From a virus (Duplodnaviria > Heunggongvirae > Uroviricota > Caudoviricetes), in the IMG/VR virus record IMGVR_UViG_647533160_000003: a stretch of 64,000 nucleotides of DNA. One strand, given 5' to 3'. Below the pieces are notes generated by a model. It worked only from the letters and a program-made list of their open reading frames with translations, was not told the DNA's origin and made no database searches. Positions 13,221-17,373 of the stretch are shown here, piece after piece. The translations under genes were made by a program, and so were the position numbers. Each line of letters opens with the position of its first letter. Position 1 is the stretch's first letter.

Positions 13221-13511
13221 ATGAGCATGTTAACTTCTTGGGAATGGTGGTTGGTCACCTATTTCTTAGCGGCCGGAGTCGCATTCGCCTTTTACGTAGG
13301 TCAGTTAGTCGTAAAACTGTTGCTGATTAAATTTGCTAGTCATAAACGTATCGATGATGGTCTGTGGCGTCTTGGCACCCTGGTGGAAACTCGCTACGGG
13401 CAACTTAAGGAGAACGAAACCATTACTATCCAAGCGAAACAATTCACTGCCACCATCACAAGAACACCTAGTCGTAGAGTGGCCTTGATCAAAAAAGTCA
13501 CAACCGAATAA
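13221..13511 (+). CDS. hypothetical membrane protein
   Basis: N-terminal hydrophobic helix WWLVTYFLAAGVAFAFYVGQLVV. Confidence 0.45.
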   Translation: MSMLTSWEWWLVTYFLAAGVAFAFYVGQLVVKLLLIKFASHKRIDDGLWRLGTLVETRYGQLKENETITIQAKQFTATITRTPSRRVALIKKVTTE

Positions 13512-14288
13512 AAATACAATAATAAGTATTTACTTACCTATCTTTTATGTATAAGATGACTTTGTTTTCGTTGAGACGCGACTGTTTGAACTTAAATACA
13601 AGTGCAAACGAAGAAGTCTATCTGGCAGTAGCCTAATAAGCCAAACACCAGCGAGGTCAGTTTCCAGCCTCGTTACCGAAATGGGACACACTGAGCGAGT
13701 GTGATTGCAGAACGCAGGAGGGAACATGAGAGTTCCCTCCGATGAAGTAACAGAATGGGCGGTCAGTATATTTTCAACTCATATACGACTCCCGGATTCT
13801 TAGCCAATGACCGCCCATCCTGTTACGTCATTTTGTTCAATTATGTCGTTTATACTGGGTTAAAAAGCGGCGACGTAGCCCGGCTGGTATGGTTAGCCAG
13901 CACACAACGTTGAGGCCATTATATTTTTATCAATTCTAAGGTTCTATTCACAGAGATACCGGCGAGCGTTGATATGTAACATGTTGGGCAAACATTCAAT
14001 CGGAGTAGTGGCCTCAACGTTGTGAAGACAGGATTGTTGTATAGGTTTAACCACTGTTGCCATTAGTGCCTGTTTTCACAACAAATGATTCCATACATCA
14101 CATTGTATAAATTACAAAGTAGGTGCTGTCCTCAGAAACATCATCTACTTAAAGATTTTGCCTTCTATTGAGCGAAGTCGAAAACGTCTGGCACTAACGG
14201 AAAGTGCCAGTAGCGGTGTGTTTCCTGGCAGAAACTAACACCGCCGCGATTGGCACTGTTGAGTAATAAATACTGGCAGTGCTGAATT

Positions 14289-14363
14289 GATGGTGTAGCT
14301 CAGCGGTAGAGCAGTTGGCTGTTAACCAACTGGTCGGTGGTTCGAATCCACCCACCATCGCCA
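14289..14363 (+). tRNA. tRNA-Asn (anticodon GTT)
   Basis: Cloverleaf by eye: acceptor GATGGTG/CACCATC, T-arm GGTGG-TTCGAAT-CCACC, anticodon loop CTGTTAA, 3' CCA. Confidence 0.8.
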
Positions 14364-14368
14364 ATTTA

Positions 14369-14455
14369 GGGGAGTTAGTCCGTAGAGGTAGCGGGACAGA
14401 CTGTAAATCTACTGTCATTGCGACTCGGGTGGTTCGACTCCATCACTCCCCACCA
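14369..14455 (+). tRNA. tRNA-Tyr-like (anticodon GTA), class II, atypical anticodon stem
   Basis: Acceptor GGGGAGT/ACTCCCC, loop CTGTAAA, long variable arm, CCA; outer two anticodon-stem pairs are A-C mismatches. Confidence 0.55.
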
Positions 14456-14459
14456 AATT

Positions 14460-14535
14460 GCCGGTTTAGCTCAGTTGGTAGAGCGCCTGCCTTGTAAGCA
14501 GGATGTCAGCGGTTCGAGTCCGTTAACCGGCACCA
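14460..14535 (+). tRNA. tRNA-Thr (anticodon TGT)
   Basis: Acceptor GCCGGTT/AACCGGC, D-arm GCTC-AGTTGGTAG-AGC, anticodon stem CCTGC/GCAGG with loop CTTGTAA, CCA. Confidence 0.85.
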
Positions 14536-14759
14536 ATACAACGATAAGATCATTACGGTTAATCGTCGTTCATGTGCACAATGACTGGTCGAAAGGTAGT
14601 GATCTTACCGTTGTGGTGGATTCGCAGACTGATGCGATAGCTTTCTTGGATGTTAGGGAAATGCGGCCGCAAATCTTCCCTTTCGCGAGCGGTGATCGTC
14701 CGTAGTCCTAATTGGCTGCACCGTATGCCGGAGATTCAGTACCGGCCACCACAACGGCC

Positions 14760-14846
14760 GGAGAGTAGGGAGCATGGTGCTCAAGCGGTCTTGAAAATCG
14801 TCCCATTGTGCAAACGATGATGGTTCGATTCCATTACTCTCCGCCA
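14760..14846 (+). tRNA. tRNA-Ser (anticodon TGA), class II
   Basis: Acceptor GGAGAGT/ACTCTCC, anticodon loop CTTGAAA with G-U-containing stem, long variable arm, T-loop TTCGATT, CCA. Confidence 0.65.
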
Positions 14847-15001
14847 GACACAGCGTTGAGCGGTTTGGCCTTTTAATCAACTCGATTAAGACTCCGCTAA
14901 CATAAACCAGACCGCTCAACGCTGTGATTGACAATTACGGCAGACGTTCTTAACCATAGCTTGCTAACATCCTAGCAACACTTTTTTTCAGCGCAATATT
15001 C

Positions 15002-15024
15002 AAAGGGGCTTCGGCCCCTTTTCT
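15002..15024. terminator. bidirectional intrinsic terminator
   Basis: GGGGC-TTCG-GCCCC hairpin flanked by A-run and T-run, between tRNA cluster and convergent minus-strand operon. Confidence 0.6.
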
Positions 15025-16236
15025 TCAAAAAAGTTTTATAAATTCATAATTCTGGTCAATTAAGGATTCAATACACACCATGCAAAAATCTACATCGTTA
15101 AAATCAGGTGTGTAATATTCATCCTCATAACATTCATTTAGACCTTCAATCAATTTTTCTTTAAAAACTCCCCACGTTTCAATATGAACCATTTCCATAT
15201 AAGGCGCATGTGTATGTACTTGCAATACATCCCAGGTGTCTATAACCTCGATCCGCGGCTTGCAATTAATTTTTTCTAAATATGCCCTCCCAGAATTGTA
15301 AATTTTCGACATTGATGCCCCAAAACCTGATGGTTGGTAATGAGTGTAAATGTCATAAATTTTTTGTCCTATTCTAGGGAGTTGAGAAGCATTGGATATT
15401 TGTGGCGAATGAAAGTATCGCTCTATGGAAGAAAACGCAGAAACATTAACTAGAGTAATCGTATATGGTGCTAAAGTTCTCTCGTTCAAATTTCTACATA
15501 AAATAGCAAACCCATGGCTATTAGTCTTTTCACCGTCTGAGGACATTTTTGCCATGCTGGCTTTAATAACATTCAATTTCGAATGTAAACGAGAAGTGGA
15601 AGTCGGTTGATTATACATTTCATCATCATACAAACATATATGAAACCCGCCAAGATGACGAAATGAGAACTTGAGTGCTTCTTCCGCAATAACTAATTTA
15701 TTAATATCTAAAGGAGTAAGTGATACGTTACCTTGTAAATCATAGCAAGGTTCTAAACATAGAAAGTTTTTCTTCTGCCACACGATCATATTAAAAATAA
15801 AGTGTCTAACCAAAGGTGGCCAGTCAGGTGATATAAGTACATTGGTAATATCTCCATCAGACAAGTATGACAAGTAACTTTTTAGTTCCGCAGCATATGC
15901 CACTAGCTCAGTTCCAGCTTCCCTTGTTGGTGTTGAAAAATTTTTTAACTCAATAAGAACTAAGGATTCATTCTCTGTTGAATAAGCAACGACATCAGGT
16001 CTTAATATCTCAGATTTTGTTGCTGAGATATTCTCATCATCTGTCATTAAATGTAACAATGTTATGTTCTTTAAACAAAACTGATAACTCTCCTTAATTT
16101 TTTTCTCTTCGGGTCTTTTCGGATTAAATTCATTTAATTTATCAATATTGATGATTGAATTATATAATCCATCTTGATCAGATAATTTGTCAATTATCCA
16201 ATTTTGCATTTCCTTTTCGCTTAAAAATATTGACAC
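15025..16236 (-). CDS. PD-(D/E)xK nuclease-like protein, second gene of candidate two-gene defense operon
   Basis: 403 aa; RPDVVAYSTENESLVLIELK is a PD-x14-ExK match; GTG start preceded by GGGAG RBS; very AT-rich. Confidence 0.6.
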   Translation of the reverse strand: MSIFLSEKEMQNWIIDKLSDQDGLYNSIINIDKLNEFNPKRPEEKKIKESYQFCLKNITLLHLMTDDENISATKSEILRPDVVAYSTENESLVLIELKNFSTPTREAGTELVAYAAELKSYLSYLSDGDITNVLISPDWPPLVRHFIFNMIVWQKKNFLCLEPCYDLQGNVSLTPLDINKLVIAEEALKFSFRHLGGFHICLYDDEMYNQPTSTSRLHSKLNVIKASMAKMSSDGEKTNSHGFAILCRNLNERTLAPYTITLVNVSAFSSIERYFHSPQISNASQLPRIGQKIYDIYTHYQPSGFGASMSKIYNSGRAYLEKINCKPRIEVIDTWDVLQVHTHAPYMEMVHIETWGVFKEKLIEGLNECYEDEYYTPDFNDVDFCMVCIESLIDQNYEFIKLF

Positions 16237-16262
16237 TAATTAGGCTCCCGTTAAACCAAAAA

Positions 16263-17084
16263 TTAAAAATCTTGCTTTACTTTATCCATGGTCAGAATTT
16301 TGCTAATAATTGAAGATTCAAATCCATCTAAACCTGAGAGAAAGTTAATTAGCTTTTGGATATGTTGTTCTTTAGGTATAAGTATATATTTTATATCATT
16401 GAACTCAAAATCAATGCCAAACTTTGAAAATTTTGAGCTAATTTTTGCTTTGTCATCAGAAGTGATAACACGCTCCAAACTCAGACTAGGCCATAAATCA
16501 CCAATAAAAGGAGCTGGCACATAACGCCACTCTTTCTCGTCTGCATATATATAATTCTCTATTGTTTTATTATCTTTTCGCTCTAGCTTGCCTCTGTAAT
16601 TTTTCATATAACGCAGTAAATTATATAGATCAGAATATTCTGCTTTCAATTTCTCAAACTCTATTCTGTTTTTGGTATCTAAATTTCCTCTAGCCTTCCA
16701 AAGCGGCACCAACTTATTTTTAATAAGTCGAATTCTGGCATTGTATTTAGAAAATATTTCACTACTCTTATTCATATATAGAACTGGGTGTAGACCTTTC
16801 TTTTCCGCCCAAGACTTAGTTAGCCCAAGACCGAATTCTCCATATTTTCCGCTATGATCTCTGATTTGTGATAGTTTTATGTCACAAAACGATACCATTG
16901 GTACTGCAAACCTCCTGCGTCCCCCGACTCCTCTTATTTCCTCGCGAGCAAGAAATGGTTTAAAATATTTCTCAGCCAATATGCTATAGAAAGCATCTTC
17001 GTTTTTTGTAAAATGAAACAACGTGGTTGGATGAAGACTATAAACAGATTCAACATTCGCATCAGGATTTTCAAGGATAGTCAT
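16263..17084 (-). CDS. hypothetical protein (LFHFT N-terminal motif), first gene of candidate two-gene defense operon
   Basis: About 273 aa from Met 17084 (AGGTG RBS 5 nt upstream; ORF open to 17129); 26-nt gap to downstream gene; AT-rich. Confidence 0.55.
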   Translation of the reverse strand: MTILENPDANVESVYSLHPTTLFHFTKNEDAFYSILAEKYFKPFLAREEIRGVGGRRRFAVPMVSFCDIKLSQIRDHSGKYGEFGLGLTKSWAEKKGLHPVLYMNKSSEIFSKYNARIRLIKNKLVPLWKARGNLDTKNRIEFEKLKAEYSDLYNLLRYMKNYRGKLERKDNKTIENYIYADEKEWRYVPAPFIGDLWPSLSLERVITSDDKAKISSKFSKFGIDFEFNDIKYILIPKEQHIQKLINFLSGLDGFESSIISKILTMDKVKQDF

Positions 17085-17373
17085 TTTACACCTTGTGGAA
17101 AGCCAGTTTAGTTCTGTAAATAGTATCACACGACAGGCGGCTATTCTTCTATCAATAAATGATAGGTAAGCACTTACTTTTTACGCACGTTAACTGTATA
17201 GTTCTTTCGGATACTCACTTGAAAGGACTCAATATGGGAAATAAATGTAAACATGCGCGTCGCGCATCTCGTCAGGTGCAGAAGTCAAATCCATACATTC
17301 ACGAGCACTACCACCTCAGCTCTTTCACTAACCGCTACACGTTCCCCAGCGAAGCGCATAACGAGGCAAAGCA

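What the first reader, a model, noticed from the sequence alone, without database searches (positions are those of the whole stretch)
13512..14288. 770-bp ORF-free region upstream of the tRNA cluster, rich in inverted repeats
No ORF of 60 aa or more in a gene-dense element. It contains a 9-bp-stem hairpin (13717-13740), an 18-bp inverted repeat with one mismatch (13747-13764 versus 13809-13826) and a second inverted repeat (13904-13918 versus 14008-14024). Candidate for a structured ncRNA, a lytic origin or packaging site, or a promoter/processing region for the tRNA cluster.
Basis: seen in the sequence. Interest (0 to 1): 0.45.

Follow-up and report, generated by a model that had tools for sequence, protein, structure and literature searches.

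The report
Phage RNA carrying tmRNA-like tag template
The 'empty' 770 bases upstream of the tRNA genes encode a large folded RNA whose front end copies the message part of bacterial tmRNA (the tag that marks unfinished proteins for destruction) but has no tRNA-like part; this unannotated RNA family is shared by many unrelated gut-bacterial phages.

Summary
The hairpins are real, and the + strand folds far better than shuffles (z = -11.5).

The region is a ~725-nt non-coding RNA gene at 13564-14288 (+), in an SSU5-type phage-plasmid. It has its own conserved promoter and abuts tRNA-Asn.

Its first ~145 nt resemble the mRNA-like domain of tmRNA:
- an A-rich leader and a GCA 'resume' codon;
- the 10-codon tag ANEEVYLAVA (E. 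coli SsrA: ANDENYALAA);
- UAA UAA inside a hairpin, then a pseudoknot and a hairpin.

The same module occurs in Felixounaviruses, HK620-type lambdoid phages and Klebsiella siphoviruses. It usually lies just upstream of a co-oriented tRNA or a tRNA-shaped domain.

Covariation supports the fold:
- core: 98.5% of cells paired, 7 compensatory pairs including a pseudoknot helix;
- full SSU5-type RNA: 119 pairs, 99.2% paired, 14 compensatory pairs.

Rfam 15, ARAGORN and RefSeq annotation all miss it. No tRNA-like domain exists in the window or in the 111-kb twin plasmid, so it is not a canonical tmRNA.

The function is inferred. It most likely modulates or reprograms host trans-translation. Origin, packaging-site and small-ORF readings are not supported.

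The parts
13529..13557 (+). Promoter-like site: -35 TTTACT (13529-13534), 17-nt spacer, -10 TAAGAT (13552-13557). The predicted start is G13564.
   Evidence: Both hexamers and the spacing are conserved in 12 SSU5-type lineages; the Klebsiella type has TATGAT. Felix-type has TTGACA-17-TATAGT and the L020 type TTTACC-17-TATAGT, each ending 7 nt before GTTTTCG. It is below the threshold of the consensus scan (8 of 12). Inferred, not shown.
13564..14288 (+). The whole structured non-coding RNA (~725 nt), from the predicted start to the base before tRNA-Asn.
   Evidence: MFE z = -11.5. 119 pairs in 15 helices, 99.2% paired, 14 compensatory pairs across 12 lineages. G.U pairs favour the + strand. 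No Rfam match.
13564..13588 (+). 5' arm, GUUUUCGUUGAGACGCGACUGUUUG. It holds the family-invariant blocks GUUUUCG (13564-13570) and GCGAC (13578-13582).
   Evidence: Invariant in the 5-way and 26-group alignments. UGUUUG (13583-13588) pairs with CAAACG (13605-13610) in the consensus fold. Complementary to E. coli tmRNA nt 81-105, but only weakly significant.
13595..13639 (+). mRNA-like domain. A-rich leader AAUACAAGU, then GCA AAC GAA GAA GUC UAU CUG GCA GUA GCC UAA UAA = ANEEVYLAVA**.
   Evidence: Aligns with E. coli ssrA nt 79-125. It is the best stop-followed 10-mer against ANDENYALAA in the window. All 132 instances found with the pattern encode AN[DE]x x[YF]LAVA* (one has K at position 2), always 10 codons. 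ARAGORN reads the homologous Mijalis site as a tmRNA tag. 77 of 102 unique sequences have no start codon in frame.
13622..13651 (+). H5-like hairpin, CUGG (13622-13625) with CCAG (13648-13651). It encloses the last tag codons and the stop codons.
   Evidence: 100% paired in the lambdoid/Felix set. The inner helix UAGC/GCUA is 93% paired there. It is also in the SSU5-type consensus.
13652..13686 (+). Pseudoknot A. Stem 1 is CGAGG (13652-13656) with CCUCG (13668-13672). The loop bases UUCCA (13662-13666) pair with UGGGA (13682-13686).
   Evidence: Stem 1 has 3 compensatory pairs. The pseudoknot helix has 2 (AU:11 / GC:7) and is 100% paired. In the SSU5 type UUCCA/UGGGA varies only to UGGAA.
13687..13703 (+). 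Hairpin CACACU/AGUGUG, positional homologue of stem 1 of pseudoknot B in the other lineages.
   Evidence: 2 compensatory pairs, 100% paired. The second stem of pseudoknot B varies GCCCG/UGGGC, GCCCAC/GUGGGC, GCCCUGA/UCAGGGC, ACCCUGA/UCAGGGU in lambdoid/Felix types. In the SSU5 type that second stem is at most 3 bp.
13708..14190 (+). Long-range helix, CAGAACG (13708-13714) with CGUCUG (14185-14190). It closes the multi-hairpin domain.
   Evidence: 6 pairs, 100% paired. One compensatory G-C to A-U change in the Klebsiella-type lineages.
13717..13740 (+). It is the homologue of the GGUAAGAGCAUU...AGUGCUCUUUCC 'unit' of lambdoid types.
   Evidence: 5 compensatory pairs among SSU5-type lineages. 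Its position is equivalent in the 26-group alignment.
13742..13831 (+).
   Evidence: 25 pairs, 99.7% paired, 2 compensatory and 7 one-sided G.U/G-C changes. The apical loop is variable.
13841..13901 (+). Two hairpins: UUAUGUCGUU (13841-13850) with GGCGACGUAG (13869-13878), and GCUGGU (13883-13888) with GCCAGC (13896-13901).
   Evidence: helices 10 and 11. Helix 10 has four G.U/U.G pairs, which is possible only on the + strand RNA.
13903..14082 (+).
   Evidence: helix 12 has 19 pairs, 3 of them compensatory. The second hairpin changes on both strands between lineages (GUGAAGACAGG/CCUGUUUUCAC against GUGGUCACGG/CCCCGUGGCCAC), seen in the alignment.
14084..14099 (+). Single-stranded motif AAUGAUUCCAUACAUC, nearly invariant. 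Partner unknown.
   Evidence: Conserved in all 12 SSU5-type lineages, with one or two single-base changes, and mostly unpaired in the consensus fold.
14190..14248 (+). Terminal hairpins: GGCAC/GUGCC (14190-14208) and GCGG (14213-14216) with CCGC (14241-14244). CGCG (14245-14248) may pair with CGCG at 13577-13580.
   Evidence: helices 14, 15 and 1. Helix 14 has 2 compensatory pairs. The 5'-3' closure has only one-sided changes and is weak.
14289..14535 (+). tRNA-Asn, tRNA-Tyr and tRNA-Thr, directly downstream and co-oriented.
   Evidence: ARAGORN and Rfam. 81 of 132 family instances have a same-strand tRNA within 1 kb downstream.
14543..14755 (+). Second family-related piece, between tRNA-Thr and tRNA-Ser. 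It holds the hairpin unit GAUAAGAUCAUU...AGUGAUCUUACC (14543-14609). A domain follows, closed by GUUGUGGUGG (14610-14619) with CCACCACAAC (14746-14755). That domain contains the hairpin UCGCA-GACUGA-UGCGA (14622-14637).
   Evidence: Matches the region downstream of the tag module in HK620-type loci. The domain occurs in 38 of 132 instances. Its two hairpins covary. Some variants have canonical T-arms and ACCA or GCCA tails. The window copy encodes no CCA.
14760..14846 (+). tRNA-Ser, abutting the closed domain.
   Evidence: ARAGORN.

Best explanation
The region is the gene for a large, highly structured non-coding RNA (about 13564-14288, + strand) of an SSU5-type phage-plasmid.

Shown:
- It is retained, and its helices are kept by compensatory changes, across SSU5-type elements of E. 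coli, Salmonella, Klebsiella, Enterobacter, Citrobacter and Yersinia.
- Its 5' ~145 nt belong to a module shared with Felixounaviruses, HK620-type lambdoid phages and Klebsiella siphoviruses.
- That module has the anatomy of the message part of tmRNA. It has an A-rich leader, a GCA resume codon and a 10-codon SsrA-like tag (ANEEVYLAVA). Stop codons sit in an H5-like hairpin, followed by pseudoknot(s).
- There is no tRNA-like domain.

Inferred:
- It is transcribed from its own sigma-70-type promoter, starting at GUUUUCG.
- Its 3' end is made by RNase P cutting at tRNA-Asn. In other lineages a tRNA or a tRNA-shaped domain sits in the same place.
- It acts on host trans-translation. Most probably it offers a phage-specified tag template, or competes for SmpB and the ribosome, in cooperation with the host tmRNA-SmpB system.
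For: Structure: MFE z = -11.5. 119 pairs are 99.2% paired, against 33-44% when the partners are slid. 14 pairs are compensatory, against 6.2 +/- 1.7 in shuffles (0 of 500). In the core, 98.5% are paired, with 7 compensatory pairs including a pseudoknot helix.

Family: a covariance model built only from lambdoid/Felix sequences finds window 13590-13730 at 77.5 bits, E = 4e-16, as a single copy.

tmRNA likeness: the tag is ANEEVYLAVA**. It aligns to E. coli ssrA nt 79-125. ARAGORN calls the homologous Mijalis site a tmRNA tag. There are 23 tag variants, all 10 codons long. They show D/E and Y/F replacements and third-position changes. 77 of 102 unique sequences have no start codon in frame.

Context: co-oriented tRNAs or a tRNA-shaped domain lie downstream in 102 of 125 instances with enough flanking sequence. 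It lies in the tRNA cluster of Mijalis, between pR'/qut and tQ in HK620, and upstream of tRNA-Ser in Carvaje.

Promoters sit at the same distance from GUUUUCG in three lineages.
Against: - No transcript data were found. The Y. pestis pMT1 small RNAs reported by RNA-seq lie elsewhere.
- No tRNA-like domain, T-arm or CCA exists beyond four ordinary tRNAs in the window or the 111-kb twin plasmid. No smpB is annotated there. It is therefore unclear how the tag could be translated.
- Similarity to ssrA is confined to 47 nt. The Rfam tmRNA models and ARAGORN do not call it in the window.
- The last four tag codons were fixed by my search pattern, so their invariance is partly ascertainment.
- Complementarity of the 5' arm to host tmRNA is weak (p about 0.03 for the window).
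Confidence: 0.6

Rival explanations
1. It is a leader and processing scaffold of the tRNA operon with no independent function. The hairpins stabilise or time the precursor and give RNase entry sites. The tmRNA-like stretch is an evolutionary relic.
For: It sits directly upstream of co-oriented tRNAs. In lambdoid types, tRNA-like hairpin units flank the module as punctuation signals would. No trans-translation partner is encoded.
Against: 51 of 132 instances have no tRNA in the locus held. The module is conserved across phage families whose tRNAs differ. The tag length and its residue classes are conserved. 725 nt of covarying architecture is excessive for a leader.
Confidence: 0.17
2. It is a real but rearranged (multi-piece) tmRNA. 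The tRNA-like part would be supplied in cis by the tRNA-shaped domain at 14610-14755, or by a neighbouring tRNA. The two would be joined by co-transcription or base pairing.
For: In HK620-type loci the tag module is followed by a four-way-junction domain. It has a 7-bp acceptor-like stem UGUGGUG/CACCACA and a hairpin stacked on its 3' strand. In some variants it has a canonical T-loop and an ACCA or GCCA tail. A homologous domain lies in the window. Felix-type loci hold a circularly permuted tRNA-like gene 570 nt upstream.
Against: The window copy has no T-loop and no CCA. It is separated from the tag RNA by three tRNAs. The 3:70 pair is U-A, not G.U. The tail is not conserved. SSU5 itself and most SSU5-type loci lack the domain. 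A message attached to the 5' end of the acceptor stem does not match the topology of any known tmRNA. ARAGORN finds nothing down to 85% thresholds.
Confidence: 0.1
3. It encodes a small protein: the 29-aa + strand ORF (13547-13636) ending in the degradation-tag-like sequence, or the 60-aa minus-strand ORF (13545-13727).
For: Both ORFs exist in the window. The minus-strand frame is open in most SSU5-type lineages.
Against: The + strand ATGs lie inside or upstream of the predicted -10 element. In-frame starts are absent in 77 of 102 unique sequences. The minus-strand ORF is interrupted in L098 and L120 and is not conserved in lambdoid/Felix types. Compensatory pairs and structural indels point to selection on RNA.
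Confidence: 0.04
4. It is a DNA-level element: a lytic replication origin or a packaging site next to the replication genes.
For: It lies downstream of the helicase, primase and ligase genes and is rich in inverted repeats.
Against: There are no iterons, tandem repeats, AT-rich block or skew change. Helices are maintained through G.U pairs and compensatory changes, which matter only in RNA. The core module also occurs in a tRNA cluster and in a late-operon leader of unrelated phages.
Confidence: 0.02

Closest known systems
tmRNA (SsrA; Rfam RF00023), mRNA-like domain with flanking pseudoknots
   Same: An A-rich leader with AUA at -6 to -4. A GCA resume codon. A 10-codon tag of the gammaproteobacterial type (AN[DE]..[YF]). 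A double stop in the loop of an H5-like hairpin. Pseudoknots immediately downstream. A neighbourhood of tRNA-type processing.
   Different: There is no tRNA-like domain: no acceptor stem with G3.U70, no T-arm and no CCA. There is no H2 helix closing the molecule. The tag ends in LAVA, not ALAA. The RNA is about twice as long, with lineage-specific hairpin domains. Neither the Rfam models nor ARAGORN detect it.
Two-piece (circularly permuted) tmRNAs of alpha-, beta-proteobacteria and cyanobacteria
   Same: They show that the tag template and part of the tRNA-like domain can lie on separate RNA pieces, made from one precursor and held together by base pairing.
   Different: In those, the coding piece still carries the 5' acceptor strand, and the gene encodes the T-arm and CCA. 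Here neither is present next to the tag module. The candidate tRNA-shaped domain (14610-14755) is closed on itself.
Phage-encoded tmRNAs (cluster C mycobacteriophages such as Bxz1, Bacillus phage G) and the TLD-only RNA of mycobacteriophage DS6A (PMC4131195)
   Same: They are phage genomes carrying tmRNA-derived genes. DS6A shows that a phage can keep only one half of tmRNA.
   Different: Those are complete tmRNAs or the tRNA-like half. This is the opposite half, the message plus pseudoknots. The 2014 census found no ssrA in enterobacterial phages or plasmids. A genome announcement for the FelixO1-like phage Moogle states in one sentence that ARAGORN found an ssrA gene, without analysis (PMC4319497).
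Large structured RNAs near tRNA genes in phages (ROOL, GOLLD) and the stable RNAs C and D of the T4 tRNA cluster (from my own knowledge)
   Same: They are long, ornate, covarying non-coding RNAs of unknown function, encoded next to or within phage tRNA clusters and probably matured with them.
   Different: There is no sequence or model match to ROOL or GOLLD (E up to 10). None of those carries a tmRNA-like tag frame. The T4 RNAs could not be compared here.

Membership tests
tmRNA (one-piece, RF00023) | tRNA-like domain: 5' and 3' ends form an acceptor stem with G3.U70, plus a T-arm and a 3' (A)CCA | tested here: not met
   The only canonical T-arms in the window and in the 111-kb twin plasmid are those of the four tRNAs. 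ARAGORN tmRNA mode finds nothing down to the 85% threshold. The 5'-3' closure is a 4-bp CGCG/CGCG at best.
tmRNA (one-piece, RF00023) | Tag reading frame without a start codon, opened by a resume codon after an A-rich leader, ending in stop codon(s) within helix 5 | tested here: met
   13595-13651: AAUACAAGU GCA ... UAA UAA inside CUGG/CCAG. Aligns to ssrA nt 79-125. ARAGORN's resume consensus matches the Mijalis homologue. No in-frame start in 77 of 102 unique sequences.
tmRNA (one-piece, RF00023) | Pseudoknots around the message (PK1 upstream, PK2-PK4 downstream) | tested here: inconclusive
   Two downstream pseudoknots are supported by covariation in lambdoid/Felix types. In the window one is supported; the second is reduced to a hairpin. 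No convincing PK1 upstream.
tmRNA (one-piece, RF00023) | Match to curated covariance models (RF00023 and the alpha, beta, cyano and mitochondrial variants) | tested here: not met
   No tmRNA-family match at gathering score or at E up to 10. None in 12 other loci at gathering score. The reverse test also fails: the family model R1 does not hit E. coli ssrA.
tmRNA (function) | Alanine charging, SmpB binding, and tagging of stalled nascent chains | not testable with these tools
   Needs biochemistry or proteomics. No smpB is annotated in the twin plasmid.
Two-piece tmRNA | Permuted gene: T-arm, acceptor 3' strand and CCA, then a spacer, then the acceptor 5' strand followed by PK1 and the tag | tested here: not met
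   No such arrangement in the window. ARAGORN's permuted call in Mijalis uses part of tRNA-Lys as the 5' domain and spans three tRNA genes.
The phage tag-module RNA family defined here (lambdoid/Felix/SSU5 types) | Core of about 146 nt: leader, tag, H5-like hairpin, pseudoknot A, hairpin or pseudoknot B | tested here: met
   Model R1 was built without any SSU5-type sequence. It finds window 13590-13730 end to end at 77.5 bits, E = 4e-16.
ROOL / GOLLD / other Rfam large RNAs | Match to the curated model | tested here: not met
   Nothing but tRNAs and chance-level hits at E up to 10 over 13300-15100.
Replication origin (iteron or DnaA type) | Direct repeats (iterons), an AT-rich unwinding element, a skew switch | tested here: not met
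   Only two short 2-copy direct repeats. No tandem repeats. GC 0.39-0.49 and no skew inversion inside the region.

The most novel reading that the evidence does not exclude
The RNA is a template hijacker. Its 5'-terminal arm (GUUUUCG...GCGAC...) would base-pair with the single-stranded resume region and PK1 3' half of the host's own tmRNA (E. coli nt ~57-105). That would mask the host tag template and place the phage's own leader and resume codon where the host's emerges.

Stalled ribosomes rescued by host Ala-tmRNA-SmpB would then append a phage-specified tag (ANEEVYLAVA) instead of ANDENYALAA. This would explain four things:
- a conserved tag frame without any tRNA-like domain;
- the invariant GUUUUCG at the transcript's 5' end;
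- why the arm matches host tmRNA better than the phage's own message;
- the divergence of the phage leader from the host's.
Probability: 0.1. Interest if true: 0.95.

Novelty: new variant of a known kind. Interest (0 to 1): 0.8.

Why it matters
tmRNA is defined by the union of a tRNA-like and an mRNA-like part. A conserved, widespread phage RNA that keeps only the message part, with its tag under apparent peptide-level constraint, has not been described in the literature I could search.

It is common. It occurs in about 5% of complete E. coli genomes (258 of 5,426, mostly on SSU5-type phage-plasmids). It is in 773 PLSDB plasmids, including Salmonella Typhi pHCM2-like and Yersinia pestis pMT1 plasmids. 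It is also in well-studied phages such as HK620 and relatives of Felix O1. In the E. coli RefSeq rows listed, no gene is annotated over it, apart from one overlapping CDS.

If it reprograms or blocks trans-translation, it would be a new way for phages and plasmids to control host protein quality control. It would also give a direct handle on two open questions: why phages depend on tmRNA, and what phage tRNA clusters carry besides tRNAs.

Even if its role is only structural, it is a new large covarying RNA family, suitable for structural study and for addition to Rfam.

Tried and rejected
1. Rfam at gathering score and at E up to 10 gave only tRNAs.
2. ARAGORN tmRNA mode at lowered thresholds found nothing in the window, SSU5 or HK620. 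The Carvaje and Mijalis calls rest on spurious distant 5' strands.
3. The long-range pairing of the 5' end GUUUUCG with CGAAAAC (14180-14186), present in the window's MFE fold, is not conserved in other SSU5-type lineages. Rejected.
4. Anti-tmRNA complementarity. RNAduplex energies looked striking (-26 to -38 kcal/mol). But 20% of random 36-mers from the window reach the window's value. An alignment-based test gives p = 0.007-0.19 per lineage. I kept it only as a low-probability hypothesis.
5. Transcript evidence was sought in Y. pestis RNA-seq studies. The pMT1 small RNAs sR082 and sR083 map elsewhere.
6. Neighbouring small ORFs have no Pfam domains and only PHROG families of unknown function. 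There is no SmpB-like gene.
7. Literature searches for phage tmRNA or tmRNA-like RNAs in Felix O1, SSU5 or HK620 found only a one-line ARAGORN mention.
8. The GTDB species-representative scan gave only 3 hits: Buttiauxella, Kluyvera and Pseudocitrobacter. The family appears confined to mobile elements of Enterobacteriaceae, at least with that strict pattern.
9. The alternative +1 mini-ORF (G/A/CUG CAA ACG ... UAG, 9 codons) is open in the examples I read by eye. Its peptide is poorly conserved and it has no Shine-Dalgarno sequence. Not favoured.
Full report
**What the window is.** The DNA around the finding is 96-97% identical to Escherichia phages CMS-2020a and Cyrano and 78% identical to Salmonella phage SSU5. 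It is 99.9% identical to E. coli plasmid NZ_CP100547.1. It is therefore an SSU5-type phage-plasmid. The region lies downstream of the co-oriented helicase, primase and ligase genes and three small ORFs. It lies upstream of tRNA-Asn, Tyr, Thr and Ser, all on the + strand. An AbiGi-type defence pair follows on the other strand.

**Check of the observation.** The hairpin at 13717-13740 is visible in the sequence. The two inverted repeats are confirmed and are longer than stated: 24 nt at 92% and 19 nt at 95%. The only ORF reaching 60 aa is a minus-strand one of exactly 60 aa. As RNA, the + strand folds to -260.6 kcal/mol against -201.1 +/- 5.2 for shuffles (z = -11.5). The minus strand gives z = -7.5. 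There are no tandem repeats, iterons, AT-rich block or skew change.

**Retention in related elements.** A distant BLAST search finds the region in 773 plasmids. The hosts include Klebsiella, Escherichia, Enterobacter, Yersinia pestis pMT1, Salmonella, Citrobacter and Cronobacter. The gap between the 96-aa ORF and tRNA-Asn keeps its length, about 750-780 nt in SSU5 and Cyrano.

**Covariation in the full SSU5-type RNA.** I aligned twelve SSU5-type lineages that are less than 95% identical to each other. They share one architecture. I counted the RNAalifold structure plus one hand-added pseudoknot.
- It has 119 pairs in 15 helices, and 99.2% of 1,385 cells are paired. Only 33-44% are paired when the partners are slid.
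- 14 pairs changed on both sides. Shuffles give 6.2 +/- 1.7 (0 of 500 reach 14), and slid controls give 0-3.
- Many one-sided changes switch between G.U and G-C or A-U. Helix 10 has four G.U pairs, so the + strand is the RNA.
- A long-range helix, 13708-13714 with 14185-14190, closes the hairpin-rich middle. It has one compensatory change.

**The unexpected core.** Query bases 41-195 also match about 100-110 nt of unannotated DNA in unrelated phages.
- In Citrobacter phage Mijalis, and presumably the other Felixounavirus hits, it lies inside the tRNA cluster.
- In HK620 and HK633 it lies between pR'/qut and the late terminator.
- In Klebsiella phage Carvaje it lies upstream of tRNA-Ser.

ARAGORN, run on the Mijalis locus, reported a 'permuted tmRNA' with tag ANDNVFLAVA** at exactly this place.

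**The tag.** The window reads GCA AAC GAA GAA GUC UAU CUG GCA GUA GCC UAA UAA at 13604-13639. That is ANEEVYLAVA**, against ANDENYALAA** for E. coli SsrA. It is preceded by an A-rich leader.
- The only significant similarity to E. coli ssrA is nt 79-125: the leader, the tag and the double stop.
- Among all 81,398 ten-residue peptides in the window's six frames, this one ranks second for similarity to the SsrA tag. It ranks first among the 3,309 that are followed by a stop.

- All 132 instances held encode AN[DE]x x[YF]LAVA*, apart from one with K at position 2. There are 23 variants, and all have 10 codons. The pattern fixed the last four codons, so only the first six are unbiased. Those six vary as natural gammaproteobacterial tags do.
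- 77 of 102 unique sequences have an upstream in-frame stop with no ATG, GTG or TTG before the GCA. It is therefore not an ordinary ORF. The ATGs that happen to be in frame in the window lie in or before the predicted -10 element.
- 258 of 5,426 complete E. coli genomes carry it: 256 places on plasmids and 14 on chromosomes. In all but one of the rows listed, RefSeq annotates nothing under the match.
- Only three GTDB species representatives have the strict pattern.

**Structure of the core.** I counted pairs in 18 lambdoid and Felix-type sequences.
- The H5-like hairpin CUGG/CCAG, with the inner helix UAGC/GCUA, holds the stop codon in its loop.
- Pseudoknot A has stem GAGG/CCUC, and its loop CCAG pairs with a downstream CUGG.
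- Stem 1 of pseudoknot B follows.
- Together these are 98.5% paired, against 35-38% when slid. Seven pairs are compensatory, two of them in the pseudoknot helix (AU:11, GC:7).
- The second stem of pseudoknot B varies in step: GCCCG/UGGGC, GCCCAC/GUGGGC, GCCCUGA/UCAGGGC and ACCCUGA/UCAGGGU.

A covariance model built from these 18 sequences alone finds the window's copy end to end at 13590-13730 (77.5 bits, E = 4e-16). It finds one copy per element and does not hit E. coli ssrA. The window therefore carries a member of a structurally defined family. The layout of that family (leader, tag, helix 5, pseudoknots) is that of the tmRNA message domain.

**What is missing.**
- Rfam's tmRNA models do not match, even at E up to 10.
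- ARAGORN finds no tmRNA in the window, SSU5 or HK620 down to 85% thresholds.
- A scan for T-arms finds only the four tRNAs, both in the window and in the complete 111-kb twin plasmid. That plasmid has no annotated smpB.

It fails the defining test of a tmRNA, which is a tRNA-like domain. I therefore do not file it as one.

**Ends of the RNA (inferred).** In SSU5-type elements a conserved TTTACT-17-TAAGAT (TATGAT in Klebsiella types) ends 7 nt before GUUUUCG at 13564. Felix-type phages have a consensus TTGACA-17-TATAGT at the same distance, and the L020 type has TTTACC-17-TATAGT. In lambdoid types the same heptamer follows a conserved hairpin unit. The mature 5' end is therefore probably GUUUUCG in all lineages.

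Downstream, 81 of 132 instances have a same-strand tRNA within 1 kb. Counting also a tRNA-shaped domain, the figure is 102 of 125 instances with enough flanking sequence. This fits 3'-end formation by RNase P, a step I infer from what is known of tRNA operon processing.

**A second related piece in the window.** Bases 14543-14755, between tRNA-Thr and tRNA-Ser, match the part that follows the tag module in HK620-type loci.
- It starts with a hairpin unit, GAUAAGAUCAUU...AGUGAUCUUACC.
- A domain follows, closed by GUUGUGGUGG/CCACCACAAC.
- In 38 instances this domain is a four-way junction. It has a hairpin 3 nt after the 5' strand and another stacked on the 3' strand, and both covary.
- Some variants have canonical T-loops there and ACCA or GCCA tails.

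It may be a degenerate tRNA-like partner or simply an RNase P signal. The window copy has neither a T-loop nor a CCA, and most SSU5-type elements lack it.

**How it may work.** The constancy of the frame length and the conservative D/E and Y/F replacements suggest that the tag is read. Reading needs a tRNA-like entry device. Three routes remain open.
- Cooperation with host tmRNA-SmpB.
- A rearranged multi-piece tmRNA using the tRNA-shaped domain.
- No translation at all, with the RNA acting as a decoy or antisense inhibitor, or merely as a leader.

The 5' arm is complementary to the single-stranded resume region of E. coli tmRNA. In the window there are two 10-bp arms against nt 81-105. In HK620 there are four colinear helices against nt 55-108. 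This pairing is better than with the phage's own message.

The statistics are weak, however. 20% of random 36-mers from the window reach the window's energy. An alignment-based shuffle test gives p = 0.03 for the window and 0.007-0.19 across lineages. The lineages are also not independent. I therefore keep template hijacking only as the most novel reading not excluded (probability about 0.1).

**Prior knowledge.** The 2014 tmRNA census found phage ssrA only in mycobacteriophages and Bacillus phage G, plus a TLD-only RNA in DS6A. It found none in the enterobacterial phages or plasmids of its dataset (PMC4131195). A genome announcement for the FelixO1-like phage Moogle states in one sentence that ARAGORN found an ssrA gene (PMC4319497). 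I found no description of the family, its structure, its lack of a tRNA-like domain or its presence in SSU5-type phage-plasmids or lambdoid phages.

**Verdict.** The element is a new, widespread, tmRNA-derived RNA that lacks the tRNA-like half. Its identity as a conserved structured RNA with a tmRNA-like message module is well supported. Its mechanism is inferred and uncertain.

Noticed in passing
L003 (Citrobacter phage Mijalis) about 1978-2060: A circularly permuted tRNA-like gene. It reads: T-arm GAAGG-TTCGATT-CCTTC, acceptor 3' strand ACCCTTC, G, CCA, a 4-nt spacer AACA, then GAAGGGT and a D-arm-like GTGT-AATGGCA-GCAC. GAAGGGT is a perfect 7-bp partner of ACCCTTC. It lies 570 nt upstream of the tag module, in the gap between tRNA-Asp and tRNA-Lys. 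The 3:70 pair is A-U.
   Followed up: partly
Lambdoid-type loci (e.g. L004 2378-2455 and 2629-2721; L015, L021, L027, L046, L005): Hairpin 'units' GGTAAGAGCATT...AGTGCTCTTTCC flank the tag module. They carry variable inserts, and several inserts contain canonical T-arms (GGGTTCGAATCCC). They look like tRNA-type punctuation signals for cutting a small RNA out of the late transcript.
   Followed up: partly
window 14084-14099: AAUGAUUCCAUACAUC is nearly invariant in all SSU5-type RNAs and mostly unpaired in the consensus fold. No partner was identified.
   Followed up: no
window 15025-17129 (- strand): An AbiGi antitoxin-like protein (PF10899, E = 5e-25) and a 403-aa partner of unknown function lie immediately after the tRNA cluster. 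This is a defence or cargo island at the edge of the replication module.
   Followed up: partly
L139 (NZ_CP100547.1 80630-83921), outside the window: The near-identical twin plasmid carries metG (methionyl-tRNA synthetase) and apbC. These look like captured host genes.
   Followed up: no
L017 1709-1862 (-): A Sib antitoxin RNA (RF00113, 98.6 bits) lies about 300 nt from the tag module in one lambdoid-type contig.
   Followed up: no
L003 feature table: The annotated tRNA coordinates returned for KY654690.2 are offset by 58 nt from ARAGORN's coordinates on the same locus. The 'tRNA-Ile under the match' in the BLAST table is therefore an artefact.
   Followed up: yes
window 13221-13511: The upstream 96-aa ORF is annotated as 'C-type natriuretic protein' in SSU5 and many plasmids. 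It has no Pfam domain and only a PHROG of unknown function, so the name looks like a propagated mis-annotation.
   Followed up: partly
L006 (Y. pestis pMT1) and L008 (Citrobacter plasmid): In pMT1 the RNA gene is truncated after about 500 nt by the caf1R/caf1 (F1 capsule) locus. In pCF_324-3 it is truncated by a Tn3 transposase. The tag module is kept, but the 3' domain and the tRNAs are lost.
   Followed up: partly
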